Shown here: positions 10,746 to 53,345 of the stretch, one piece after another
Layout of the letters: every line of letters begins with the position of its first letter
Position numbering within the stretch: the first letter of the stretch is position 1
Origin: Pseudogymnoascus verrucosus
Taxonomy: Eukaryota
Strand: one strand, 5' to 3'
Length of the DNA: 64,000 nt
NCBI GenBank assembly: GCA_001662655.1
Contig: KV460206.1
The notes under the pieces: model-generated
What the model was told of the DNA's origin: nothing
Databases searched by the model: none
What the model saw: the letters and a program-made list of their open reading frames with translations, nothing else
Translations under genes and position numbers: made by a program

Positions 10746-11639
10746 AGGGGGGCAGGTTGGAGGTGGCCTACTAATTGCGTGGTGGTGGAAGTTTTCTTCT
10801 CCTTTGTAATTCTCGTCATCATCTCAACAACCAACCAATTTTCCTTTTTTTGGGGCTCGTCAAAAACTTTGGGGGATTTTCCTCTCTTTGTTATTGTTCT
10901 TTCCTATTTTTTTGGGCGAAAGAGAAACGCATTTTCAGCGAAACGTATCTGTGGTTTTTTCCTTTCGTTTTCTTTATTTTGATACTACAATACAGAGTGC
11001 GGCAATGCACAATTTACAGACAGCCAAGATTGGAGCAGTGGTTTTGGGGCTCATGGGCCCGTGTTTTGATTCGTTTCGTTGGTGGGATGGGGGTTGGTGA
11101 TATTGGAAAACATGTGAAGCATCTAGGCAAGAAGGCTAGGACGAGGGGAGGGATAGGATTTGGGTGCATGACGCGGAGTCTAGGTTTAAGAGGGGAGCTC
11201 CGTTAGCTAGAGGGGGGTAGCAGAATACAAAGCATATCACCCAAAGACCTTCTTGTGATGGAGAGGATGCCTGTGAGTGTTTATTAAGCTCTTCTGTGAT
11301 TAGGTGCTATAGAGGTGTAGTATGTGTCTATAGGTCCTAAGGGCTATGAATGCATCTGTTTAATGGGGGGATATCACTTCCCCCATCCCACATCCCCATT
11401 GAGATCTAGATTGCAAAAGCCACATATCAAAATCTGAGAATCCAAAACAAAGCATATCACTTCCCCCATCCCCATCCAGATATATGTGCTTCTAAACCAC
11501 ACATATCAAAAACCAAGAACCCAAACAGAGCCCATCAGTCATGGATTCCCCTGCCAAGAAGAGAAGAGAGGCCTACCTTGCGCCCCTAAACCTCCTGTGG
11601 AGGTCACGGAGATGTGTCAAGATCTCAAGATCACTTTCC

Positions 11640-12047
11640 CTTGGCAGGAAGGAACGACCCTGATATTGGGTATATCGTTCCTTCCGTTCCGATACCACGT
11701 CTCAAATAGACTAAACTTGGCAGGAACGACCTTTCTCAGAGAACACCACCGTCGTTCTTTCCTTCCCGCTACCATATCCCAAAGACCAGATTACAAGTCC
11801 CAAAAACCCAAATTTAGCAAGAACAACCCTCTATAGAAGACACCGTTCCTTCCGTTCCGATGCTATATATCCCATGTCTCAAAAACCCAACTTGGCAGGA
11901 ACGACCCTCTCTCTATAAAGGACACCGTTCCTTCCATTCCGATACAATACACATCACATGTCTTAAATCCCAAACTTGGCAGGAACGAACGACCCTGATA
12001 ATATACTCTACCGGCCGGTCGTTCCTTCCGTTCCTTCCGTTCCGTCC
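11640..12047. repeat. ~75-80 bp minisatellite, about 5 units, each with the internal inverted repeat GGAACGA..(T/C)CGTTCC
   Basis: Recurrent aaacttggcaggaacgacc, a variable 15-25 nt spacer, then cgttccttccgttccgat. Confidence 0.85.
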
Positions 12048-12285
12048 CAGCCACGTGGAGTGTAGAGAAACTAATGAACAAACAAGCAAAGCCCAGGAGG
12101 AACGAAACGAAGAGAGGGTCTTTGTGGTATGGATAGGCGGTAGGGATGGGTCTCATAGTAAGGGCGGGAAACGCAGTTTCTCACACTCTTACACTCCCCC
12201 TCATAGCATACATCACGGGTAACGGGTAACCAGCAAGGCGGCGTTCTCAGGTCAACCCTTCGCGCCCGTCTGCCGGCGTAGCTCT

Positions 12286-12410
12286 CATCCCACTTCCCAT
12301 CCCGCTTCCCATCCCACTTCCCATCCCACTTCCCATCCCACCACCTTTCTCACATCCACATCCACCACCACCTTCACCTCCACATCCACCTCCCATCCAC
12401 TCCCATCCAT
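12286..12410. repeat. Low-complexity (CCCATCCCACTT)n and CCA/CAT-rich tract
   Basis: About four direct 12-mers, followed by C-rich sequence. Confidence 0.8.
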
Positions 12411-12898
12411 ACCAAGCACTTACCAGATCTAGCCTCATCTTTCACTCCTGCATTATGTTATACCCCATATAATATACAGTAGTAGTAGGTAATCTGCTTA
12501 ATAATATCCCTCACTCACCCCCTCTCCCCTCACTCACCCCTCTCCTCTCCCCGCCATCCCGCGCCCTTCCCTCTCTCCCACTCCTCCCACTCCCCCTCCC
12601 TCCCTCGCCGCATCCGCCCCTCCCTCCCTCACGCCGTACACCCATCCGTCCCGGCCAGTCCTCCGTCCCTCTCCCTTCCTCTCCCACCAAGCCAGCCAGC
12701 CGAACACGACCACCGTCTCCAATCCCGTATCCCCATTGACGAATCAAAAGCGTGTGTGAGTGGAGCTTACCTAACTTACCTAACTTTACGGAGGACAAAG
12801 GAGCTCTGTCCTCCGCCTGGCTGGATCCCCATCCATCAAATTGGGATTGGGATAGGATGGGGAAAAGCACAGACCACCAGTGGGACGACTGGGAAGTA

Positions 12899-12905
12899 TG
12901 ACTCA
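12899..12905. promoter_or_regulatory. Candidate Gcn4/Cpc1 response element TGACTCA far upstream of cpc-1
   Basis: ATGACTCAC matches the consensus TGA(C/G)TCA. Confidence 0.35.
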
Positions 12906-13669
12906 CACGGCCTCAGAGACTAGTGGCTACGGTGGACGAGGCGGCGTGTTGGTGGTGTGTGTGATGGGGTGGGGTGGATGGGGGGATAGGTGAGTGCCTG
13001 AGGCATAGATGGGCGTTGGTTGGTGGTGGCGCGGGGATGGCGGCTGATTTTTAAGGGGGGTGATTACAAAGGTGGTCCGTCTAGGCCGAGGCGTGTCTGT
13101 AAGGTAAGGTGGGATTGTGGGAAGGCAGAAGCGTGTCGTGTGTGGATGGTGGACTGCTTGGACATGCTGGATTGAGGATGGGGGATGGATGGGAGGGATG
13201 GGAGGGATGGGTTAGATGGGGATTCGTGCAGGTACGCGTGGATGGATACGAATGCGATGGGGTTGGTCTGGGATATGGGATACTGTGAGATGCTGTGGTG
13301 GGTGGTGTTGATGGGATTATATGGGACTGTGGGATAGATAGTATGGGATACTATGAGATACTACAGTGGAATGAACTGGCTCTATGACTGGAATCCCACA
13401 CTTACAATCATACAGCAATCATACAGCATCACCATATCATGTCCACCACGTAAAATCACAATAAACTCTCTTATTTGTCCTCTAAACATCGTATCGCATC
13501 TACGTATCCCATCCCTCCTCCCCGTCGTTTCAACATCCCTCCCTCTTCTCCCCCACATCGCCAAACAACTGCAGTGTGCTGTGCAGCAATACTATAGAGT
13601 TCCCCATGCACTGTCCATCACCACACACAAGCCATTACAAGCACCCCCCATCACCCCGGCAAGCAATTA

Positions 13670-13676
13670 TGAGTCA
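13670..13676. promoter_or_regulatory. Candidate Gcn4/Cpc1 response element TGAGTCA upstream of cpc-1 (autoregulation)
   Basis: ATGAGTCAG lies ~940 bp upstream of uORF1. Autoregulation through such sites is established for Aspergillus nidulans cpcA. Confidence 0.5.
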
Positions 13677-14607
13677 GAAAGAACACACCCCCAGTAGCCA
13701 ATCTCCCCTCTCCCTCCCATCCCACCAGAGCGGAAAAAACGACACTACATGTCCCATTCCCCCGCCGTTGTCCCTCCGCTCGATTGTCAGCCATTGGGTA
13801 GTCTCCGGCCAATGGGACACATGCACTGCCCCATCCTTCGCTACAGAATAGTGGAGATACTACAGCGGACGGCGCGGCGTGCGGACACTGCGCTCGCCGC
13901 GCATTGGTGATTTAATGGCCTGTCTGTCTGCTTACATGTACAGGCAGGGCGAGGCACAATGGCGTGGGGAGGTATCGACAAGGCGGATTGGTGGTGCGGG
14001 GGTACTTGGTACGGCTGTCGGTTGCCAGACTGTGGGAGATGGATCGGCGTTACTGTACTGTGATTGTTCCCACTGTTCGCCCTTTGCTGTCACCCCTGCT
14101 TTTTGTCTCAGTGGGAGAATGAGAGGAGGGGAATAGGTACACACCCGTTAGACTACAATTTCACACCACTTTAGGATACGTATCCCTGTCTTCCCTAATA
14201 GTTTGTCTGTGAAGAGTGTGCTCTGGTGTGCTGTGGTGTGCTGTGGTTTACTGTACTGTCGTATGTTCTCTTTTGCGGCTCCCTCCTACCAAAAGATACT
14301 TCCTCAAACCCTTCTTTTTTCGCTTGTTCTCTCCTCTAAACCGTTCCATCCACTCCCCCCTCCACTAACACACATAACTAACTCCACCCCCCTCCCCACC
14401 ACCCCCCCTACCACACCAAAAACTACAAACTACGACTTCCCACAGCCCACTAAGCGCTAAATTTGTCAGGCTGCCACGAAAATAGTTATAACCCACCCAC
14501 TGCCCCAGGCTTCACTTTTTTTCTTTTCTTCCCTTCTTTTCTCTCTTCAACCCAAAATACTATCACAACACAACAAATACATCAACACCATCGTCATCAT
14601 TCACAAA

Positions 14608-14616
14608 ATGGCTTAA
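14608..14616 (+). promoter_or_regulatory. cpc-1 uORF1 (ATG GCT TAA)
   Basis: cacaaaATGGCTTAA in strong context; a very short first uORF as in GCN4/cpc-1. Confidence 0.85.
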
Positions 14617-14812
14617 CCGCCCTTAGTCTTCCAGACGCTTTCAAGATTCATTTCGAAACTTTAAACAACTTACCCAACCCCACTCCACAATACCCAGTTC
14701 TTTTCGAAGACCTGAACAACAGCATTCCTCGGAACAGCTCAAGCTCTCAACAACTACCCACCACCATTCTACCTAACGTCTTTACGACGGCTTCCCAAAC
14801 CCTTCAGTCACC

Positions 14813-14962
14813 ATGGCCTACCCAACCCCAATCAACGAGCCCTTTGGCACCACAGCAATCGCAGCAACCCTCCCCACAGACGGATTATCAAACTCCTCCG
14901 GACTTCGTGCTCTTCCCGCGTCGTTCTCTCGAGGCGTCTCCCAACGCTCAGAATATCCCTAA
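14813..14962 (+). promoter_or_regulatory. cpc-1 uORF2 (49 codons, inhibitory type)
   Basis: ATG GCC TAC CCA ... TAT CCC TAA, out of frame with the main ORF. It is the only ATG between uORF1 and the main AUG. Confidence 0.85.
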
Positions 14963-15269
14963 TCTGCCCCGCAACCACGCCCCCAGTGGTAGCAATCGTC
15001 GTCACTCCGCAAACCCCCTGTCTGCCCCGTCCCTGCAGAACCAGAGAGTAGCCGCGATCATCCAAGGCACAGGCCATCAGATTTCTTCTCCAGCGTTTAC
15101 AAACCGGTATAATCCATTCCCGCAGCAACAGCAGTTCTACGCGCTGTCTGCCCCGTCGTCGTCCGCCGCTCTACAGTCCCAGATCAGGACCCGTCCCCAG
15201 GTCCCACTGTTCTCGCAGAGCACCGGCAACATCCATTCCAACAACAAGCAATCGTTCCCCCCCAACAAC

Positions 15270-16052
15270 ATGGCGCAAGGTAATTATTCACTGTCCCATT
15301 CACAACCCTGCGGTGATTCACACTCACACCTCCGCCCAGACATGAACTTATTCGACGACTTCGACTCGTTCGACCTCAAGTCCTCGGACAACATGAACTT
15401 CCCGGATCTCGACTACAAGTACTCTCCCGCAGTGCCCACCATGTACTCGCCCGCGCCAGCCATGAACCGAACCGATTCCGCGTCCACGAGCATGGGCACG
15501 GTGTCGCCGCAGGACCTCATGGTCCGCGACGCCACCTTCTCCGCGCCCAACTCCACCGTCTTCACGAACCTGACGTCGCCCTCCCAATACAACGAGTCGC
15601 CCGACTACCTCCACGACCTCGACGTCTCCCCGATGTACAACTCGGACGACCTCACCAACGGCGACCCGTGGTTCCCCCTCTTCCCCGAAGGCGACGCTTC
15701 CTTCCCCGCCCCCGTCGCGGTTGACACTTCTCCTCTCGCCGTTGACGAGGAGCTCGAGGTTGGTGACGCTCTCCGCGAGCGCCGCCGTCGCTCCGACAGC
15801 TCTCCTCACTCCAAGGCCGCTTCGGCAGCCGCGGGAGTCAGCGCCCGCAAGCGCAACCAGCCCCTCCCACCCATCGTGGTCGAGGATCCCAACGACACTG
15901 TCGCCATCAAGCGCGCGCGCAACACTCTTGCAGCGCGTAAGTCGAGGCAGAAGAAGATGGAGCGCTTTGACGAGCTTGAGGCGGAGATTGCAAAGATCGC
16001 TGCCGAGAGGGATATGTGGAAGGCGAAAGCGCTCGCGAGGGGCGCAAACTGA
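15270..16052 (+). CDS. cpc-1: Cross-pathway control bZIP transcription factor Cpc1/CpcA (Gcn4 orthologue)
   Basis: Motifs GTVSPQDL, SAPNSTVFTNLTSPS, WFPLFP and the bZIP PLPPIVVEDPNDTVAIKRARNTLAARKSRQKK. Main AUG at 15270; intron 15280-15339. Confidence 0.96.
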   Translation: MAQGNYSLSHSQPCGDSHSHLRPDMNLFDDFDSFDLKSSDNMNFPDLDYKYSPAVPTMYSPAPAMNRTDSASTSMGTVSPQDLMVRDATFSAPNSTVFTNLTSPSQYNESPDYLHDLDVSPMYNSDDLTNGDPWFPLFPEGDASFPAPVAVDTSPLAVDEELEVGDALRERRRRSDSSPHSKAASAAAGVSARKRNQPLPPIVVEDPNDTVAIKRARNTLAARKSRQKKMERFDELEAEIAKIAAERDMWKAKALARGAN

Positions 16053-17164
16053 TGTTTCGCTTGACATCATCACACTTTTCTTCACATTGATTGGGGTTGG
16101 GAGGCTTGCTGCGCTCTCGGCCCTGGGTAGTTTCGGAGGCAGTCTTTGGCTTTGTCCAAACTCTGCCGTGGGTTTCAACAAAAGTTCTCTATTTCTTTTT
16201 ACTGGACATTGTACGTTTCTTTGTGCGGAGTGTATTACGGATTTTCACGACCTTTTTTGTTTTCTCGAAGACTTTAACTTCTCACTGTTTATTACGAATT
16301 GCGTTTGGGACTCCTGAGAGTGAAAAAGTTTACATCGGGGAATGGAAAGAAAGGAAGGATATGAAGAGATCCGGCCCGCGTTGCTTTTTATATTTGGTGT
16401 CCTCCCCCTTCAATGGGGTTGAAGGGCTTTTGCTTATACATGTTGTTCGATTGTGTTCCGACTCTCTTGCCTTCTCTCCCATCGTGGAAGACTTTGCGGC
16501 GGGGAAGGGGGAGAGGAACGGTGACCAGCTTTTTCTTGCTTTTTGTGTTAGAACAGACACCTTAATAGTTTTTATGTTCGGTGTTGGGCCTCGTAGAGGT
16601 TTAGCGTTGGGCTTAGAATTGAAGATGCGTTGGTTTTGATATCTTCTTATGACTTCTTGCTTGACTTGATGTGAATCGTGATCTGTTGCTTGATGCGTAA
16701 ATATCTCCTACAACTCAACCCATACATACGTCAACCTCCCCTCCTGTCACCAATATCCAACCCCAGACGCGCCCCAATGAATCTAAAATGCTACTATCCC
16801 TACTACACACCACCACCCTCTCGTCATCTCCTCCCAAACCATCCCCAGCGCAACACTTCCTCTCCTTACTTTATAAAACCCCATCCTCTAAGTCCCCATT
16901 CCATCCCTCACAGCCCTCGTAATTCTCATCTCCGCTCCCCCCTCTTTCTATCCCGGAGCATGGGATTTAGTAGCTACAACCTTGTCACAATTCCAGTTTA
17001 TAGCCACGCCATTACGACTCATAGAGGAGCTACAGTACTAATGGCAACCACGATCGAGACAGAGCCACCTGTTTATAGTGCACAAAAAGCTAGGGGAGCT
17101 TTGAACTTGTAGAGAGTGAGTGGGTATATGGTAGGCACGACTGGCTTATGGTATATGGTATGGA

Positions 17165-17455
17165 AGGAAGGAACGACGTATGTGCACCTGCCATTATTAT
17201 GGTATATATCATGGTGAGAAGGTAACGACTGACGGCACCTGCCACTATTTATGGTACATATCATGGTGGGAAGGAACGAGTGATGGCACCTGCTACTATT
17301 ATGATATATACTATGGTGGGAAGGAACGACTGAGTGAGGGCACCTGCCATTATTATGTGATATATATTATAGTAGAAGGAACGATGTATGGCACCTGCTA
17401 CTATTATAGTGTATATATGGTGCAGAAGGAACGACCTATGGCACCTGCCACTTAT
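17165..17455. repeat. ~50-bp minisatellite, 6 units: GAAGGAACGAC..GGCACCTGCYAYTATTAT..TATAT..ATGGT
   Basis: Six successive gcacctgc cores, each preceded by gaagg(t)aacga. Confidence 0.9.
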
Positions 17456-17899
17456 GTATTGTATGACATCTCCAAGTTATGGAAACTACGATTGACCCGC
17501 GCACCTGCCGTTTTTAAGATTTGTATGAAGGGTTTCCATAGGCTCTTGGAGTATGAGAGAGTGATTGAACAGCTCCCCCACTTTCAACTTCAAAAAGGGG
17601 GTTGTCCGCATGTTTACACGGCTATGTGTTATAAGAAGGGGCAGCGGGGATTCTAGCAATGTGGAAGGGGAGGTGGAAAGCTCAATATAACGATTGAACT
17701 TGTTTGAGGACGGGAGGGGGAAGAGGGGCGTGTCGGCCTTGGTGGATGGATGGGTAGTGGGAGTGGTGGAGGTGGAATGATATATAGCAGATGTGAACCA
17801 CCCATACATTCAAACCCCATGCTCCCACAAAATGGCATAAATCTTGTATTAATATTGATATTATCTCCCCTCCCCCCCGCCCCCCAAAATACCCCCTAT

Positions 17900-42913: not shown

Positions 42914-43840
42914 ATGGGGTCGACAAATGAAGGATCATATACCGCTCCAGCCGAGGAAGTATCCTTTGCTGGACTTCTATTTGACTTGGACGGCACAATT
43001 ATCGATTCCACAGATGCAGTTGTGAAGCATTGGCACCAGTAAGCGCCCTTCCTGTTTAAGCCTCACCAGTCACTGACCAAGCGTAGGATCGGAAAGGAGA
43101 TTGGCGTGGACCCAAATGTTATCCTGCAGACCTCGCACGGCAGGCGCAGTATAGACGTTCTCAAAATTATAAGCCCCGAGAAGGCCAACTGGGAATGTGA
43201 GTTACCACTAACCTGCGGTTGACGTAACCCACTCATCCATCTCCATTCACTTCGCATATTACCCCAAAATCACAGAATTCTCACACCCAACACTTCACCC
43301 GACTCATTTCCCACCTCCTCTCAACCATCTACTAACACGCCTCTAGATGTATGCGAAGTGGAAGGCCAAATACCCGCCCGCTACGGAGCAGACGCCACTG
43401 AGATCCTCGGCGCCCGCGCCCTCTGCGATTCCCTCTCCGCCACCACTCCTCCAGTTCCGTGGGCCATCGTGACCTCCGGAACCGCTCCCTTAGCCAACGG
43501 CTGGCTCCGCATCCTCAAACTCCCAGCCCCTGAGCACTTCGTGACCGCGGAGTCCGTGGCGAACGGCAAGCCAGATCCGCAGGGCTACCTGATGGGTGCT
43601 GAGTCTCTTAAGCTTGACCCTAAGGGGCTGCTAGTGCTGGAGGATAGCCCTGCGGGAATTAAGGCCGGAAAGGCGGCTGGGTGCAGGGTATTGGGCGTGG
43701 CGACCACGCATACGGCGAAGGAGGTCAAGGAGGCGGGTGCGGATTGGGTTGTGGAGGATTTGAGGAGTGTTACTGTTGCGAGGGTGGGGGAGGAGGGAGG
43801 AGTTGTGCTTAAGATCAGTGAGGGGTGGGTTGGAAACTAA
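42914..43840 (+). CDS. HAD-superfamily phosphatase (glycerol-3-phosphatase / 2-deoxyglucose-6-phosphatase type)
   Basis: LFDLDGTIIDS motif I, SHGRRS, IVTSG, GKPDP, EDSPAGIKAGKAAG; two introns (~43039-43087 and ~43197-43346). Confidence 0.9.
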
Positions 43841-45902
43841 TTAGACGGGTACTAGGAGGCGTAGAGAAAGGAATCTGCTTGATGTTTGTTTTGTTTTTAG
43901 GCGGCATTCCGAACATGGATATACGGAGTTACCCAAGAGGGGTTTAGAGCCGGCAACCCCAGACGATGGTACTGGGAGGTAGAATAGCAACCTTATGAAC
44001 TACCAATTACGTTTATGTTGATACGACAAGTCTCGTCGCGTATGTGACTGTAAGATGGCTTCATAAAATTGATAGGCCCTCAATGTATATCCACGGTAGA
44101 TCTGCGCTAAAGTATGCAGAGAGCGGAGCGCGCAAACAATTCTACTGCAAGCATGGATATCATTCCGTCTGTGCAGCTCTTCACTGTCCTTAGATGGGTA
44201 GAGATTACAACGAATGCAAGGCCGACGGACGCCACCAATAGATGCTTCTGCAAGGGAGATAGTGAGGCCGAATCAGGCCGAATAGCCTCCGGTTCGGGGT
44301 TTTGAGAAGGCCCTAGAGGTCTACAAATACCGCGTCTGCCCATCAGACGGAGGAGTAATATAATTCAACATGATTCTATTTTACCATACGTCGATATACT
44401 GATGTGCGCAGTAACTGTTGGGTGTATCTCTATAAAACATGGAGTAAGTGCCTTATCTACCACCATAAGTGATCCAGGTACACAGCTAACCAAGGAATGC
44501 CTCCTAGAGCATGCCTACAAGTTAAATGAACGCCTTGAAGTATCTAAGCTTCATCTACTCAACTCTTCACCAGCACAGCGACGCAGATAGCCAGCAACGA
44601 ACCACCCCCCCCTAGGATTTTTCCTGTTGGCATAGTGTACTGTGGTCCTTCTCCGGCCAATGGCTATATCAGCACAGTGACCGCAAATGCCTATCTGTAG
44701 TGGCCGCACTGGTATAACTTATTGGACGTGAAGCACTACTATTTACTATGTCAACAGCGATAAATTCTCGTGAGCGTGATCTGATTGACCCCAAAAGACA
44801 CAGAGAGAGGGGCCGCTAAAACGAGGTTCATCCCGGTGCCTTTCCTTTTGGATATCGGGTTGTTTATGTCGGCACCCCGACCTCCAAGGGGGGAAGGCAA
44901 TGGGACGGTAATGGCGATAATAGGTGTTCACAGCCTCAGCAGGTATCGTTGGCAACAGTGGGTCTCCTCTTCTCCCATCATTCGAACGATGCTATCTCGT
45001 TCTACCAGCGCCTAACTTTTGTTTCCCATGAACTAATGTCCTGCAGCTCTCAGATTTATTGATGCAGTACAAGAGTAATCATCTCCAACCAAACCCCGGA
45101 ACAGTATGGTGATGGCAAATGTCCACTGCACTGCTTTGGATGTATGGTCGAGAAAGTCTTATTACGCAACTGTATCTATGGAAGTAAGAGCTGTAAGATG
45201 GAGGTTTTGGCAAACAGAAGTAGTGCATCAGCAGAATGAGATGACGCTGGTGGAATGATGGAGGGGGAGGGGAAATGAGAGAGCGAGTGGTGCGTCTGCT
45301 TCTGAATATACCATTTACAACGCTCTTTGGTCTGCTGATAGGCGGGCAGTAATAATACGCTCACGCACCGAGCGAGCATCAGTATAGTGGTCGCAAATTT
45401 CTATTTGTAGTCACTGCACTGGTAGTTCTGCTGCGTGTCTGCGAATTATTACTGCCCGGGTACCAGCTGATCCAAGAGCTGTGGGCCGTGGTTTGTTGAT
45501 ATAGACTAATTTCGTTCCACTTGTTTCACCTGTGATGGAAAACACGTGGGATGAACCCGGCTATAGCAACAGCACCGGCACATCTCTTGGGTTATAGATA
45601 TATACAGTTTATAATAAAAGTTTCATGCTGTGTATATCACCGATTTCTCCCCATGACAAGTTCCAGTGCACTCCAACTTGGTAACAAGTAATATCTCTAC
45701 AACATTGCATACTCATGAGATGTGCCCTTGTCTTGCAGTAGATAACCCGATACGTTAATGCCGTTCTAACAGATGATATTAAGCAGGCATTGGTTATACA
45801 CAGCTGTGCGCTCCGAGCTCTCCTATTCAGGGGCTTACTTTCGTCCCCGCCAACGTTGATACAACTATCACTCTCAACCCAGCTATATACGCCATCTATA
45901 GT

Positions 45903-46304
45903 TTAAGTAGACAAAGTATTCACAACACTCTTAGTCACAACCTCCTGAATCTTAGCTGGCTCATCCGCCCCAACAAAAGTCAACGCCTCGAAATCAGCAA
46001 AAAACCCCATCCGCCCATAATTAAACGACCCCCCAGTCAACATACACATTACTCCGACACTCGCGCCCCAAACTCCCACTACGCTCTCCTACATCTGCCT
46101 CATTCGAGCTAACAAGCTGCCCTGCAAACCCTTCATCCGCAATATTGGGAATGCTCTTAAAGACATATCCATCAAACAACCCTTTCCCCTTATCCGTCCC
46201 CTTAAGAGCGTGTCCGCCATTGTTCTCCCATACGCTGTTGACGGCGTAGAAGAGCGTGTTGCCGCTTAGGGCGGGGCTGCGGCCGGAGCTGTTAGAGATG
46301 TAGT
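45903..46304 (-). pseudogene. Frameshifted 3' remnant of a polysaccharide lyase family 1 pectin lyase
   Basis: Manual translation: YISNSSGRSPALSGNTLFYAVNSVWENNGGHALKGTDKGKGLFDGYVFKSIP..GFAGQL, shift, LGRECRSN, shift, GSFNY..GFFADF..VVNTLST*. It resembles the fungal pectin lyase C-terminus (SGRSP..TLFHAVN..GHA.EG..LGR.C..N..AGN). No upstream exons are visible. Confidence 0.8.
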
Positions 46305-46340
46305 CTTATTAGGGGGGGGAGTTAGTAGTAGATATAGGGT

Positions 46341-46389
46341 ATGGGGAATGGGGAATGGGGAATGCGGAATGGGGAATGGGGAATGGGGA
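46341..46389. repeat. (GGGAAT)n-like microsatellite, G-quadruplex-capable
   Basis: atggggaatgggaatggggaatgcggaatggggaatggggaatgggg. Confidence 0.75.
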
Positions 46390-46670
46390 GTCGCTTCTTC
46401 CTCAGTTAAGGGGTCGTTCTTTCCATTTTCAAGCAGTCGTTCCTTCCTCTTCGAGTTGGCTGTTCCTTCTTTCTGTAGACGGACGGTCGTTCCTTCCCCT
46501 TTACATGGTCGTTCCTTCCTTAGTTACTGGGCCGTTCCTTCCCTCTGAAAGTCAATTGTTTCTTCCTCAGTTAAAAATGGCGTTCCTTCATTCTCGAGTC
46601 GGTTGTTCCTTCCATTTTTATGCGGTCGTTCTTTCCTTCTTTCCTTCTGCAGTCGATCATTCATTCCTGC
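46390..46670. repeat. Array of about 12 GTCGTTCCTTCC-like cores separated by ~10-14 nt variable spacers
   Basis: Reverse complement of the GGAAGGAACGAC core seen at 11.6 kb and 17.2 kb. Confidence 0.85.
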
Positions 46671-46818
46671 CTCAAGACGACTATTTCAATAAACTTCAAT
46701 AGCTTATATATACTTATAGCTAAAACCTTCCCATAAACTCCCCGCCCCCGGCCCCACCACTCCCACCTTCCAAACCAACCATATACCCGCATCCAACTCC
46801 CCAAAATTACCTCCCCTT

Positions 46819-48669
46819 TTAAACCTCATTACTAGGATACTCCACCTTAGTAGTCTCCACAAACTCCTCCTTAATACTCCTCATACTCACAAACCTCGTG
46901 AGCAGATTCACACTCCCCGCCTTATCATTCGTGCCACTCGCCCTCGCCCCCCCAAACGGCTGCTGCCCCACCACCGCCCCGGTGGACTTACAATTAATAT
47001 AAAAGTTGCCCGCACAATCCCTCAACCTCTCCTCCGCGAACCTAATCACCGCGCGGTCCTGCGCGAAGATGCTACCCGTAAGCGCGTACTCCGAGGCGTT
47101 CGAGATGGCCTGGATAGCGTTGTTGAAGTTGTTAGAGCGCGTAGACTCTTTGTCGGCGTAGACGTGGACCACGAGGATGGGGCCGAAGAGCTCGGTGCTG
47201 AGGAGGGGGTGTTTGGGGTCCGTGGTCGCGTAGATGGTGGGGTGGATGTAGTATCCCTTGGAGTTATCGTATGTCCCTCCCACGAGAAGCTCGAGGGAGT
47301 CGTCCTTGGCTGCTGCGTCGATGACGGCGGCGAGCTTATCAAAAGACGCAGCATGAATGACTGGTCCGACGAAGTTCTCAGGCTCGGTAGGCGGGCCGAT
47401 CTTAAGAGCCTTGGTCTCGGAGACGAGACGCTCTTTGAATTCTGGCCAGATGGTGGAGGGGACGTAGCAGCGCGAAGTCGCAGAGCATTTCTGGCCCTGG
47501 AACTCGAAGGCACCGCGCACGGTTTGGAGAGCTGCGTTGTCAACGGCCGCGCTGGCGTGGATGAGATGGAAGTTCTTCCCTCCCGTCTCGCCAACGATGC
47601 GTGGGTAACCAATATACCTGCCACTCGCAACACCCTCACCAATCGTGCCGTACAACTTGCGGAACACGGCGGTGGACCCGGTATAGTGCAGTGCGGCGAA
47701 TTGCCTGTGTCCCAGCACGACCTTTGTGACTTCGGCTGGGGGTCCAGGGACGAACTGGATGACGTTTGGTGGGAGTCCGGCTTTGAGGAGGATCTGGTAG
47801 AGGAGCCAGTTGGATGCGATGGCGGAGTCAGAGGGCTTCCAGACTACGACGTTACCCATCAGTGCGGGTGCGCAGGGTAGGTTGCCCGCAATGGCGGTGA
47901 AATTGAACGGCGAGACGGCGTAGACAAATCCCTCCAGCGGCCTATACTCGACTCTATTCCAGACGCCCGGCGAATGCAGAGTAGGCTGCTGCGCATACAA
48001 CTCCTCGGCATACTGAACATTAAACCTTAGGAAATCCACTAGTTCCGCAGCAGCGTCGATCTCGGCCTGCCATGCGTTCTTGCCTTGCCCCAGCATCGTG
48101 GCAGCCATCATCTGGTAGCGGTATTTCCCGGCAATCAGGTCCGCGGCCTTGAGGAAGATGGCGGCGCGGTCGGAGAAGGGCATTGATTCCCATGCTTGCT
48201 TGGCGCCGAGGGCCGAGTTGATGGCCTTTGTGACGTCGGTGCCGGAGGCTTTGGAGTAGGTGGCGATGGTGGAGGCGTGGTCGGAGGGGTTGTGTTGGGA
48301 AAGGGTATGGGAGGTTTTGACCTGGGAGGGGAGTCAGTTAGCTGTTGAGTTCGATTGGGAGCTTGGTTGGGTGGTGAACGTACCTCTTCACCGCCGATGA
48401 AGAGCGGGACTTCGAGTGGCGTCAAGCTCTGGAATTTCTTCAGAGCGCTCATGAGCCCAGCTCGTTGCGCGGAGCCTTTGGCATAGTGATGCTGCCTTCT
48501 CGTTAGTTTTCAATCGCAAGAGTTGCTGCTGTCAGCATGTTGGTGAACTCACGTTAGGTTCATTCGTAACCTTTGGGATCTTGAACGAGGCAAGGCTGAC
48601 GTTCCTCTTCGCGGTCAGGGCGCCGCGGCTGCTGAGGGCAGGAATCCTGCGCATGGTTCTGGTAGCCAT
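46819..48669 (-). CDS. PUT2: Mitochondrial delta-1-pyrroline-5-carboxylate dehydrogenase (Put2/PrnC)
   Basis: Presequence-like MATRTMRRIPALSSRG; motifs QGKNAWQAEIDAAAELVDF, SPFNFTAI, GETGGKN, FQGQKCSA, QQPFGGARASGTNDKAG; two 5' introns. Confidence 0.96.
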
Positions 48670-51590: not shown

Positions 51591-53023
51591 TGCGACTTTT
51601 GAGGTCGCGGGGCCAGGGAGTCACTGGGTCTCGTTCTCGTGGCGATTGAAGGTTGTCTGATCGTGTTACCGAGTAACGTTCGACTCAGACAATATTCCCA
51701 GACCGAAGATCAGAGCAGAAGCGCAGATGCGGGGGGCGCAAGTGCAGAGTTGCAAGGTGCCCTGAACAAGCGCAGGTAGGGAAGCGGGCCAACAATGCCG
51801 AGCAGCTGGGAACCGAAAACGAGTGACTGTGGTGAGTTGTAAACACAATATGGAGCTAATAGCGAGAGAGCGAGTGTCGAGGAAGCGATATAGTGTCAAT
51901 AGACGGTGGATAAATATTTTAGGGCGCTATTGGGCGTTAAGGAGTGATCGGCGGGGGGCCGGTATCCTTGAAATCGGATGGAACGGGGCTCAGCGAGTGT
52001 TTTTGTCGGCTAAAAGAGCGACAGGAGCAGAATTGAAGGATCGGAAATGCGTCAATTGTAAACCCCTTCGCGAAATATCGAGATCCGAAAGCCCAATTGC
52101 TCAAGGCGCGGTCGTTTCTCCGCGGGAAGGATCGGCCTCGGTCGTGGATATGTGACCGGTTGAGGGTGTATGAAGTAGAGCAAGCGTCAATTCACGTTCT
52201 TCGTGTCTAATTGCGCATCCCGAGCGAAGGATGAGGAGAGATATGAAATATTTGTCGCGTCGGATCTGGGGAACGGGAACACGAAAGCGAATGTGAGCTC
52301 AGTCGACGAAGAGAAGGAGGTCGATGAGGATTTGGCGGGCAGAAGGGGAAAGGGATGATCGGTTTTCGCGCGCTGGGATTTGGGGCAGCCGAGTCGTTCC
52401 TGTCTGCAGGTAAGCGGTTCTTCAATCGGCGAGATTAGCTGCCTCGTCGGGGGGAACGACGGCAACGATCTTGAGGCGGATTGCGACGGGCGAGGGCGAG
52501 GGCGACGACGTGAAGAAGAAGAGGAGAGAAGGATCGATGGGTGGGATTTGAATGAAGATAAGCAACAGTGCACAGGTTGGGATCGGTTTTCCGTGTCGAT
52601 CTTCTGGGAGGCTGAGATCAGAAGGGAAAGTGTGGAGGAGAAAGTGATATTTGGTTCGTAAATAGGAATGATTTTCAGCCGGTGGGTGGGTGTGGTGTAT
52701 GGCTGCAAGTAAGTAAAGGTACAGAGTTTAAGGTACTACATGTGGTAAGGGGGTTAGACGCGACAAAAGTGACATGTGGGTGTGGTTTAGGAGAGTGTAG
52801 GGAGTTGGTTGTGAGTGGATGCGAGTGGTGGGTTTTAGGATGTATCAGTGGGTGCCAGTGGGTGGGCGGCGGAAGGTGTGTGGAAGAGCGAGAGAAAGAG
52901 AAGGGAATTGTGGAATTTGTGGGTGGGTGGGATGGATGGATGGGTGGGAAGGGGCGCCGGCCGGAGATGGGAGATGGGTTTAGATGGGATGGGCGGAGAC
53001 CGGGGAGGGGAGGGGGAGATTCA

Positions 53024-53345
53024 ACTGCTAGGATTACTAGGATTGCTTGGATTCGACTGCTAGAATTGCTAGGGTTGCTTGGATCACTCGCTAGAAATAT
53101 GCTAGGATAGCCTGTTAGGATGTGCTAGGACTTACTGGAATATGCTAGGATTGACTCGAATTACTAGCATTTACTGGAATTACTAGGGTGTTGCTAGAAT
53201 AGAAATCAGCTAGGATCACTAGGAGTGCAACTGGGATTTGCTTGAAATCAGCTAGGATCACTAGGAGTGCACTGGGATTTGCTTGAAATCAGCTAGGATC
53301 AACTGGAATTGCAACTGGGATTTGCTTGGATTTGCTTGGATTGCT
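53024..53345. repeat. Degenerate 9-10 bp satellite (GCTAGGATT-like) with a 3x ~41-bp higher-order repeat
   Basis: gaaatcagctaggatcactaggagtgc(a)actgggatttgctt repeated near 53202, 53245 and 53285. Confidence 0.85.

What the first reader, a model, noticed from the sequence alone, without database searches (positions are those of the whole stretch)
11640..12047. Repeat-spacer array in which each unit can form a hairpin
Seen: conserved arms GGCAGGAACGACC and CGTTCCTTCCGTTCCGAT flank variable 15-25 nt loops about five times. The layout superficially resembles a repeat-spacer array, but this is a eukaryote with no cas genes nearby. Inference: if transcribed it would give serial stem-loops (small-RNA source or termination structure).
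Basis: partly seen in the sequence, partly recalled or inferred. Interest (0 to 1): 0.5.

Follow-up and report, generated by a model that had tools for sequence, protein, structure and literature searches.

The report
Old fungal minisatellite with hairpin-forming units
Five decayed tandem repeats of about 80 bases, upstream of a stress-regulator gene in a Pseudogymnoascus fungus, can fold into short hairpins only because each unit holds two opposed copies of a 12-base motif; this is ordinary repeat DNA, not a CRISPR-like array, though the motif also builds two other nearby repeat tracts and may bind a protein.

Summary
At 11640-12047 five units carry the two reported arms around 15-25 nt loops, far above chance.

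It is not a repeat-spacer array. The loops and linkers align with each other as diverged copies, so this is an old minisatellite of about 80 bp. It lies in a non-coding gap about 2.4 kb upstream of the cross-pathway-control (GCN4/cpc1) gene of a Pseudogymnoascus fungus.

The two arms are opposed copies of one 12-nt core, GGAAGGAACGAC. Hairpins follow from that. They are clear in 3 of 5 units, weak in one and absent in one, with arm helices of at most 11 bp.

The same core builds two other minisatellites in the window, at 17146-17452 and 46391-46650. There it sits in one orientation only, and the second of these shows no excess folding. So the core, not the hairpin, is the recurring feature.

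Four close relatives keep array 1 with unchanged unit number. No RNA data were available. Rfam gave nothing.

Best reading: a fossil minisatellite whose core is probably a conserved DNA motif and a candidate protein-binding site. Low to moderate interest.

The parts
11363..11639 (.). Two to three degenerate upstream units of about 80 bp. They share the A-rich linker of the hairpin units but carry a C-rich head instead of the arms.
   Evidence: Direct-repeat families D6, D7 and D9 with spacings of 76-83 nt. Alignment with U1-U5.
11640..11715 (.). Unit U1. Both arms are nearly perfect inverted copies of the core. This is the strongest hairpin.
   Evidence: RNA fold -25.7 kcal/mol, z -4.92. DNA fold z -4.71.
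11716..11812 (.). Unit U2. The right arm is degenerate and the linker is longer. The hairpin is weak.
   Evidence: D2 copy, 80%. z -1.83 as RNA and z -0.52 as DNA.
11813..11890 (.). Unit U3. The left arm is decayed by three G>A changes and the right arm is intact. No hairpin.
   Evidence: Alignment A4. z +0.37 as RNA and +0.64 as DNA.
11891..11974 (.). Unit U4, with a 7-bp arm helix.
   Evidence: z -2.54. (z -2.78). TRF period-84 row.
11975..12048 (.). Unit U5. The left arm has an internal 4-nt duplication. The right arm is expanded into a 9-nt micro-repeat.
   Evidence: 12020-12047, period 9, 3.1 copies. (z -2.66).
17146..17452 (+). Array 2, a 51-bp minisatellite of about 6 copies. Every unit carries the same 12-nt core on the + strand and TGGCAGG on the - strand.
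   Evidence: One unit (52 nt) is absent in run X3.
46391..46650 (-). Array 3, about 11 units of 20-26 bp. The core on the - strand is conserved and the spacers are largely diverged.
   Evidence: No excess folding.
14454..16052 (+). Context: open frame of the cross-pathway control (GCN4/cpc1) bZIP gene. It is flanked by array 1 upstream and array 2 downstream.
   Evidence: Pfam bZIP_1. Homologues named cross-pathway control protein 1 or general control protein GCN4.

Best explanation
Shown. The feature is an old, diverged, non-coding minisatellite. A unit of about 80 bp (left arm, loop, right arm, A-rich linker) was duplicated in tandem at least five times, and the copies have since decayed. 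The two arms are opposed copies of one 12-nt purine-rich core, GGAAGGAACGAC, so the unit hairpins follow from that arrangement. The same core, and little else, is shared with two other minisatellites of different unit length in the same 64-kb window. In all three arrays the core is the best-kept part of the unit.

Inferred. The arrays arose by replication slippage or unequal exchange. The core is kept because it acts at the DNA level, whichever way it points, most likely as the binding site of an unidentified sequence-specific protein. Each array is then a homotypic cluster of sites. The hairpins themselves have no role.
For: - Tandem structure: TRF period 84, repeat families D2-D5, and alignments of whole units including loops and linkers.
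- Non-coding: the ORF crossing the array has no Pfam match. Unit lengths are 76, 97, 78 and 84 nt, two of which are not multiples of three.
- Arms are better kept than the rest. Mean pairwise column identity is 0.83 over 35 arm columns against 0.28 over 72 other columns. Only 11 of up to 20000 random block pairs do as well.
- Core recurrence: 35 sites within 2 mismatches of the core, 28 of them in the three arrays. The other 7 match the chance level (simulations: mean 5.6, maximum 11).
- The arrays share only 13-15 nt.
- In array 3, by my count, the 11 cores average 1.3 mismatches per 12 nt, while the spacers barely align.
- The hairpin is not a family trait: array 3 gives z +1.0 and +1.9, array 2 gives z -2.4 and -1.9.
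- Age and stability: four relatives at about 98% identity hold array 1 with no unit-scale length change. Contig pieces measure 1086 against 1086, 1116 against 1117, 1086 against 1089, and 1085 against 1085 nt.
Against: - No protein, transcription-factor family or published motif could be tied to the core.
- Outside the arrays the core is no commoner than chance in this window. A general promoter element would not be expected to behave this way.
- By my ORF-based reading, arrays 2 and 3 lie between convergent genes, not in promoters.
- The arm and core blocks were chosen after seeing the alignments, and those alignments are anchored on the same blocks. This inflates the contrast.
- Substitutions in the one relative whose list is complete (X2) show no depletion in the cores: 7 substitutions in the array, 1 of them in a core, against about 2 expected. 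The test has no power.
- Strings like the core arise easily in compound GGAA/CGAA-type microsatellites of unrelated eukaryote contigs. Slippage could therefore regenerate part of the core.
Confidence: 0.5

Rival explanations
1. Purely neutral minisatellites. The arrays are by-products of slippage or unequal exchange with no function. They share the core because it is a slippage-prone or recombination-prone low-complexity seed, in the sense of the old 'minisatellite core' idea. The apparent conservation of the core then comes from ascertainment and from slippage regenerating it.
For: - The window holds many other tandem arrays (18 TRF rows at score 60 or more).
- Neighbouring arrays change copy number among relatives. 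Array 2 loses 52 nt in 1 of 4 runs. The 12-mer satellite at 12285-12322 loses 36 nt in 3 of 4 runs.
- The right arm of U5 is itself a 9-nt micro-repeat.
Most are compound tetranucleotide microsatellites with 8-nt spacing. Of the 15 loci with wider spacing that I read, 14 were microsatellites or whole-unit repeats.
- Arrays 1 and 2 also share TGGCAGG: 11 window matches against 2.4 expected, 8 of them in these two arrays. This overlaps 7 nt of the human hypervariable minisatellite core as quoted in PMC2408603 and PMC9069542 (passages seen).
Against: - Slippage of GGAA-type units does not explain the non-repetitive CGAC end of the core, which is kept in all three arrays.
- In array 3 the spacers have diverged almost beyond alignment while the cores stay near consensus.
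- Array 1 shows no copy-number change in 4 of 4 relatives.
- The likeness to the human core is only 7 nt. Once tandem copying is allowed for, that is within chance.
Confidence: 0.3
2. Relic of a mobile element. The arrays are decayed subterminal repeat blocks, or MITE or foldback remnants, of a DNA transposon whose transposase-binding motif was the core.
For: - Array 1 is bounded by a perfect 13-nt inverted pair, 11647-11659 and 12017-12029 (I2).
- Arrays 1 and 2 carry the bipartite TGGCAGG-plus-core arrangement in opposite orientations on either side of the cpc1 gene.
- The edge of array 3 has a 13-of-15 match to the left arm. 5 of 300 shuffles score as well.
Against: - No similarity beyond 13-15 nt links the arrays or any other part of the window.
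- I saw no transposase-like ORF among the 30 ORFs scanned against Pfam.
- By my reading, there is no target-site duplication at the ends of the 13-nt pair.
- The internal structure is head-to-tail, not a global inverted arrangement.
Confidence: 0.1
3. The array is transcribed and its serial stem-loops act as RNA, either as a small-RNA source or as a termination or processing structure.
For: - The whole array folds better than shuffles on both strands, z -4.27 and -3.15, with 0 of 100 shuffles as good in each case.
- 3 of 5 units give clear local hairpins.
Against: - Arm helices are at most 11 bp.
- One unit has lost pairing without compensation, and no compensatory change is seen anywhere.
- The loops are homologous rather than unique.
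- The core recurs in arrays that do not form such hairpins.
- No Rfam family matches at E up to 1.
Confidence: 0.07

Closest known systems
Eukaryotic minisatellites (VNTRs) that share a short core, as in the human hypervariable minisatellites
   Same: - Head-to-tail units of tens of bases in non-coding DNA.
- Several arrays of different unit length share one short core.
- Neighbouring arrays vary in copy number among relatives.
   Different: - The core here is a different 12-mer. Only TGGCAGG or GGCAGGA overlaps the human core GGGCAGGANG as quoted in PMC2408603.
- Array 1 is diverged and stable in copy number in 4 of 4 relatives.
- Its units hold the core in both orientations.
Tandem repeats and homotypic binding-site clusters in fungal promoters (Vinces et al. 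2009, 'Unstable tandem repeats in promoters confer transcriptional evolvability'). The paper is recalled and was not read. One search shows only that 62 papers in the library hold all four search terms, among them the title phrase.
   Same: An intergenic array upstream of a regulator gene, with a short conserved motif repeated many times.
   Different: - No binding protein is known.
- Array 1 lies about 2.4 kb from the cpc1 open frame.
- Arrays 2 and 3 appear to lie between convergent genes.
CRISPR repeat-spacer arrays
   Same: Only the look of it: conserved short blocks alternating with more variable stretches of 15-25 nt, and palindromic potential.
   Different: - The host is a eukaryote.
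- The 'repeat' is two different arms, not one identical direct repeat.
- The 'spacers' are homologous to each other.
- No cas genes were seen among the 30 ORFs scanned.
Fungal microRNA-like (milRNA) hairpin precursors and hairpin small-RNA loci
   Same: Local stem-loops of 50-75 nt in tandem.
   Different: Helices are at most 11 bp, not the roughly 20 bp or more that Dicer needs (general knowledge). One of five units does not fold. There are no expression data.
MITEs and foldback elements with subterminal repeats
   Same: A short motif repeated in both orientations, and a 13-nt perfect inverted pair at the array ends.
   Different: No other copy of a longer element in the window. No target-site duplication was seen. 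The internal organisation is tandem.

Membership tests
CRISPR array | One near-identical direct repeat of about 23-55 nt throughout the array | tested here: not met
   Two different arms of 13 and 18 nt, which are inverted relatives of each other. Copies are 60-100% identical.
CRISPR array | Unique, mutually unrelated spacers | tested here: not met
   The loops of U3 and U4 align along their length. U1 and U5 share their first bases. U2 partly aligns.
CRISPR array | Prokaryotic or viral host with cas genes | tested here: not met
   Fungal housekeeping genes. The best hits are to Pseudogymnoascus. None of the 30 ORFs scanned has a Cas family hit.
Minisatellite / VNTR | Head-to-tail units of about 10-100 bp | tested here: met
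   Five units of 74-97 bp. TRF period 84 for the two best units. Alignment A4.
Minisatellite / VNTR | Copy-number variation among strains or close species | tested here: not met
   Array 1 shows no unit-scale length change in 4 of 4 relatives. Array 2 does vary (1 of 4), as does the adjacent 12-mer satellite (3 of 4).
Minisatellite / VNTR | Non-coding | tested here: met
   Unit lengths of 76 and 97 nt break any reading frame. ORF 11438-11836 has no Pfam match.
Core-sharing minisatellite family | The same short core in arrays of different unit length | tested here: met
   The 12-nt core is in three arrays with units of about 80, 51 and 23 bp. 28 of 35 window sites lie in the arrays. Nothing else is shared.
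Human-type minisatellite core (GGGCAGGANG) | Presence of that core | tested here: inconclusive
   Only 7 nt overlap. TGGCAGGWR has 11 matches against 2.4 expected, but 8 of them are tandem copies in two arrays. The core is as quoted in passages of PMC2408603 and PMC9069542.
Transcription-factor binding-site cluster | A motif bound by a known factor, and enriched in promoters | tested here: inconclusive
   No published motif was found. Of the 553 papers that hold one of the strings, the 20 listed showed nothing relevant by title and abstract, and the one I read used it as a primer. Outside the arrays the core is at chance level. Binding cannot be tested here.
miRNA-like hairpin precursor | An extended duplex of about 20 bp or more | tested here: not met
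   The longest uninterrupted arm helix is 11 bp, in U1. The others are 7-8 bp or none.
miRNA-like hairpin precursor | Small RNAs mapping to the stem | not testable with these tools
   No run on record as RNA holds the stretch.
Any Rfam family | A covariance-model match | tested here: not met
   0 matches at gathering score in the whole window. 0 matches at E up to 1 in 11000-12600.
MITE / foldback element | Terminal inverted repeats with target-site duplication, and multiple genomic copies | tested here: inconclusive
   A 13-nt inverted pair sits at the array ends. I saw no duplication beside it. No further copy is in the window. The whole genome is not held.

The most novel reading that the evidence does not exclude
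The 12-nt core GGAAGGAACGAC is the recognition site of an undescribed sequence-specific DNA-binding protein of Pseudogymnoascus. Arrays of it are kept by selection. Two of them bracket the cpc1 (GCN4) master regulator of amino-acid starvation in opposite orientation. They would act as binding platforms such as an enhancer, a boundary, a transcription roadblock or a recombination-promoting element. That would make this a fungal case of a functional minisatellite core.
Probability: 0.25. Interest if true: 0.55.

Novelty: new member of a known kind. Interest (0 to 1): 0.25.

Why it matters
As it stands, the finding removes a false lead. There is no CRISPR-like or structured-RNA locus in this fungal gap, only a decayed minisatellite.

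The part worth keeping is the 12-nt core. It is conserved inside three otherwise unrelated arrays within 64 kb, two of them flanking the cpc1/GCN4 regulator. If the core proves to be a protein-binding site, these arrays would give a simple handle on how tandem site clusters arise and are maintained in filamentous fungi. They could also serve as strain-typing markers, because array 2 and the adjacent 12-mer satellite already differ among close relatives.

Tried and rejected
- Whole-genome search: no genome is held for this window. The genome-wide distribution of the core could not be measured.
- RNA evidence: no RNA holder was listed among 23 runs. All four runs laid were contigs, so nothing can be said about transcription.
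- Footprinting with relatives: the four relatives are only about 1.6-2.3% diverged over 11200-12285, and the table of differences was cut (307 rows not shown). Only X2's list is complete there (17 of 17). Its 7 substitutions inside the array give no power.
- A contig of a more distant relative in X4 (depth 20.3) seems to keep 11875-11911 twice in tandem. The sides of that joint are only 35 nt, so I give it little weight.
- An 18-nt exact match of the left arm on another contig of X6 could be chance. By my own estimate, about 6 such matches are expected per genome for a 6.6-kb query.
None looked like a Pseudogymnoascus locus. Only L116 resembles array 3.
- Earlier findings of this scan: nothing for this genome, for these sequences or for the motif.
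- Literature: of the 553 papers that hold one of the core strings, the 20 listed showed nothing relevant by title and abstract. The one paper I read (passage only, PMC9108439) has it inside a microsatellite primer of an unrelated fungus. Searches on Pseudogymnoascus tandem repeats and on fungal minisatellite cores gave nothing relevant among the listed titles and abstracts.
- tRNA or SINE origin: no tRNA genes in the window.
- Recalled transcription-factor motifs were compared by eye only and none fits the core. These were PacC GCCARG (its complement occurs in 4 left arms), TEA/AbaA CATTCY, heat-shock elements, CGG half-sites of zinc-cluster proteins, and CSL GTGGGAA (present in 2 units of array 2). 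These are recollections, not tests.

Full report
**Observation.** Reading 11300-12400 shows five head-to-tail units between 11640 and 12048. Each unit has four parts: a left arm, a loop of 16, 21, 15, 19 or 25 nt, a right arm, and an A-rich linker.
- The reported left arm is exact twice and nearly exact twice. In the third unit it is decayed by three G>A changes.
- With up to 2 mismatches the left arm has 19 matches in the window against 1.54 expected.
- The right arm has 5 matches against 0.02 expected.
- The repeat finder groups the arms and linkers into families spaced 77-94 nt apart.
- Tandem Repeats Finder scores the two best units as a period-84 repeat with 83% matches.

**Host and context.** The window encodes ordinary fungal housekeeping proteins: kinases, tubulin, an ABC-F ATPase, a GNL3L-type GTPase and an aldehyde dehydrogenase.
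- The open frame at 14454-16052 ends in a bZIP domain. Its homologues are named cross-pathway control protein 1 or general control protein GCN4. The closest, at 87-96% identity, come from Pseudogymnoascus species.
- Array 1 lies about 2.4 kb upstream of that frame.
- To its left, protein-like + strand ORFs run to about 10745. They have no Pfam match and only weak Atlas leads to Ascomycota hypothetical proteins.
- The array is not coding. Unit lengths of 76 and 97 nt break any frame, and the ORF that crosses it has no family match.

**Not a repeat-spacer array.** When whole units are aligned, the loops and linkers align as diverged copies. The loops of units 3 and 4 match along their length. 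Those of units 1 and 5 share their beginning. Unit 2 matches in part. Two or three further degenerate units upstream (11363-11639) share the linker but not the arms. The structure is a decayed minisatellite.

**The arms are one motif in two orientations.** The left and right arms are reverse complements of a single 12-nt core, GGAAGGAACGAC. Folding confirms what follows from this.

| Unit or array | RNA fold, + strand | Shuffles as good |
|---|---|---|
| Whole array, + strand | z -4.27 | 0 of 100 |
| Whole array, - strand | z -3.15 | 0 of 100 |
| U1 | z -4.9 | 0 of 200 |
| U5 | z -2.7 | 3 of 200 |
| U4 | z -2.5 | 4 of 200 |
| U2 | z -1.8 | 7 of 200 |
| U3 | z +0.4 | 121 of 200 |

The arm helices are 7-11 bp. 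Unit 3 lost its left arm with no compensating change in the right arm. There is no covariation to support a selected structure.

**The core recurs elsewhere without hairpins.** The same core occurs in two other intergenic arrays.
- Array 2 is at 17146-17452, with about six 51-bp units and the core on the + strand.
- Array 3 is at 46391-46650, with about eleven 20-26-bp units and the core on the - strand.
- Within 2 mismatches the core has 35 sites in the window. 28 of them lie in the three arrays. The other 7 are at the level of simulated sequence (mean 5.6, maximum 11).
- A short-word BLAST shows that the arrays share only 13-15 nt.
- Array 3 folds no better than shuffles (z +1.0 and +1.9). 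Array 2 folds only modestly better (z -2.4 and -1.9).

The recurring feature is therefore the core, not the hairpin.

Arrays 1 and 2 also share TGGCAGG. It has 11 matches against 2.4 expected, 8 of them in these arrays. The edge of array 3 has a weak 13-of-15 match to the left arm, and 5 of 300 shuffles score as well.

**Is the core constrained?**
- In array 1 the arm columns have a mean pairwise identity of 0.83, against 0.28 for the rest. Only 11 of up to 20000 random block pairs do as well.
- In array 3 the cores average about 1.3 mismatches per 12 nt (my count), while the spacers barely align.

This pattern is what selection on a short DNA motif would give. It is hard to get from neutral decay of tandem copies. 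I note two weaknesses. The blocks were defined after seeing the alignments. The alignments are also anchored on those blocks.

**Relatives.** No run on record as RNA holds the stretch. Contigs of four related organisms were laid on 11200-17800.
- All four hold array 1 at about 98% identity with no unit-scale length change.
- Array 2 lacks one 52-nt unit in one run.
- The adjacent 12-mer satellite lacks 36 nt in three runs.
- In X2, whose difference list is complete for this stretch, 7 substitutions fall in the array and 1 of them in a core. That is too few to test constraint.
- Several differences shared by all four relatives make the units more alike. This suggests ongoing decay in the window's own lineage.

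**Wider searches.**
Nearly all are compound tetranucleotide microsatellites with 8-nt spacing from unrelated, mostly marine, contigs. Only L116 shows three cores with unrelated 22-nt-spaced spacers. Core-like strings therefore arise easily by slippage, which supports the neutral rival.
- Rfam gave nothing, and there are no tRNA genes.
- The core strings appear in the literature only in unrelated contexts such as primers, judging by the 20 of 553 papers listed and one passage read.
- The human hypervariable minisatellite core, as quoted in PMC2408603 and PMC9069542 (passages), overlaps only 7 nt with the left arm.

**Verdict.**
- The CRISPR-like look is superficial.
- The serial hairpins are real for three or four of the five units, but they are a by-product of opposed core copies in a fossil minisatellite.
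- The most likely reason the core is kept in three arrays is a role as a DNA motif, probably a protein-binding site. This is inferred, not shown.
- A neutral, slippage-driven origin remains a strong rival.
- Transposon-relic and RNA readings are less likely.
- The feature is a new member of a known kind and of low to moderate interest.

Noticed in passing
window 12286-12409: A C-rich 12-nt satellite lies just right of array 1 (4.7 clean copies, then degenerate ones). Three of four relatives lack 36 nt (three units) at 12285-12322. A related C-rich motif heads the degenerate units left of the array (11371-11389 and 11454-11472).
   Followed up: partly
window 17146-17452: A 51-bp minisatellite downstream of cpc1 carries the same core plus a conserved GCACCTGCCA block that contains an E-box-like CACCTG. 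One 52-nt unit is absent in run X3.
   Followed up: partly
window 46337-46389: A 7-nt microsatellite (GGGAATG, 7.6 copies) directly abuts array 3. It differs from the core's GGAACG by one C/T transition and lies in the opposite orientation.
   Followed up: no
window 53018-53328: Three adjacent tandem arrays with periods 32, 19 and 42 seem to share a short CTAGGAT-like block. This is another case of neighbouring arrays built on one short motif.
   Followed up: no
window 14454-16052: The cpc1/GCN4 frame is open for 532 codons, but most homologues (333-395 aa) cover only 56-72% of it, and some Pseudogymnoascus records annotate long forms. The upstream third may be leader kept open by chance, or an N-terminal extension.
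   Followed up: no
window 13282-13407: A stretch of about 105-124 nt in the cpc1 upstream gap is replaced by 10-21 other letters in runs X3 and X4.
   Followed up: no
window 11875-11911 (run X4, contig of depth 20.3): A more distant relative in run X4 aligns only in short blocks across the cpc1 upstream gap. One block is the linker plus left arm of unit 4, apparently present twice in tandem.
   Followed up: no
L116 290-360: A metagenome contig of unknown organism holds three core copies 22 nt apart with unrelated spacers. It is the only array-3-like case among the 121 loci.
   Followed up: partly
window 43840-46819: A gap of about 3 kb lies between the ends of a HAD-hydrolase gene (+) and the aldehyde dehydrogenase gene (-). 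It has no ORF above 109 aa, and array 3 sits 169 nt beyond the dehydrogenase stop. It may hide an unannotated or non-coding gene.
   Followed up: no
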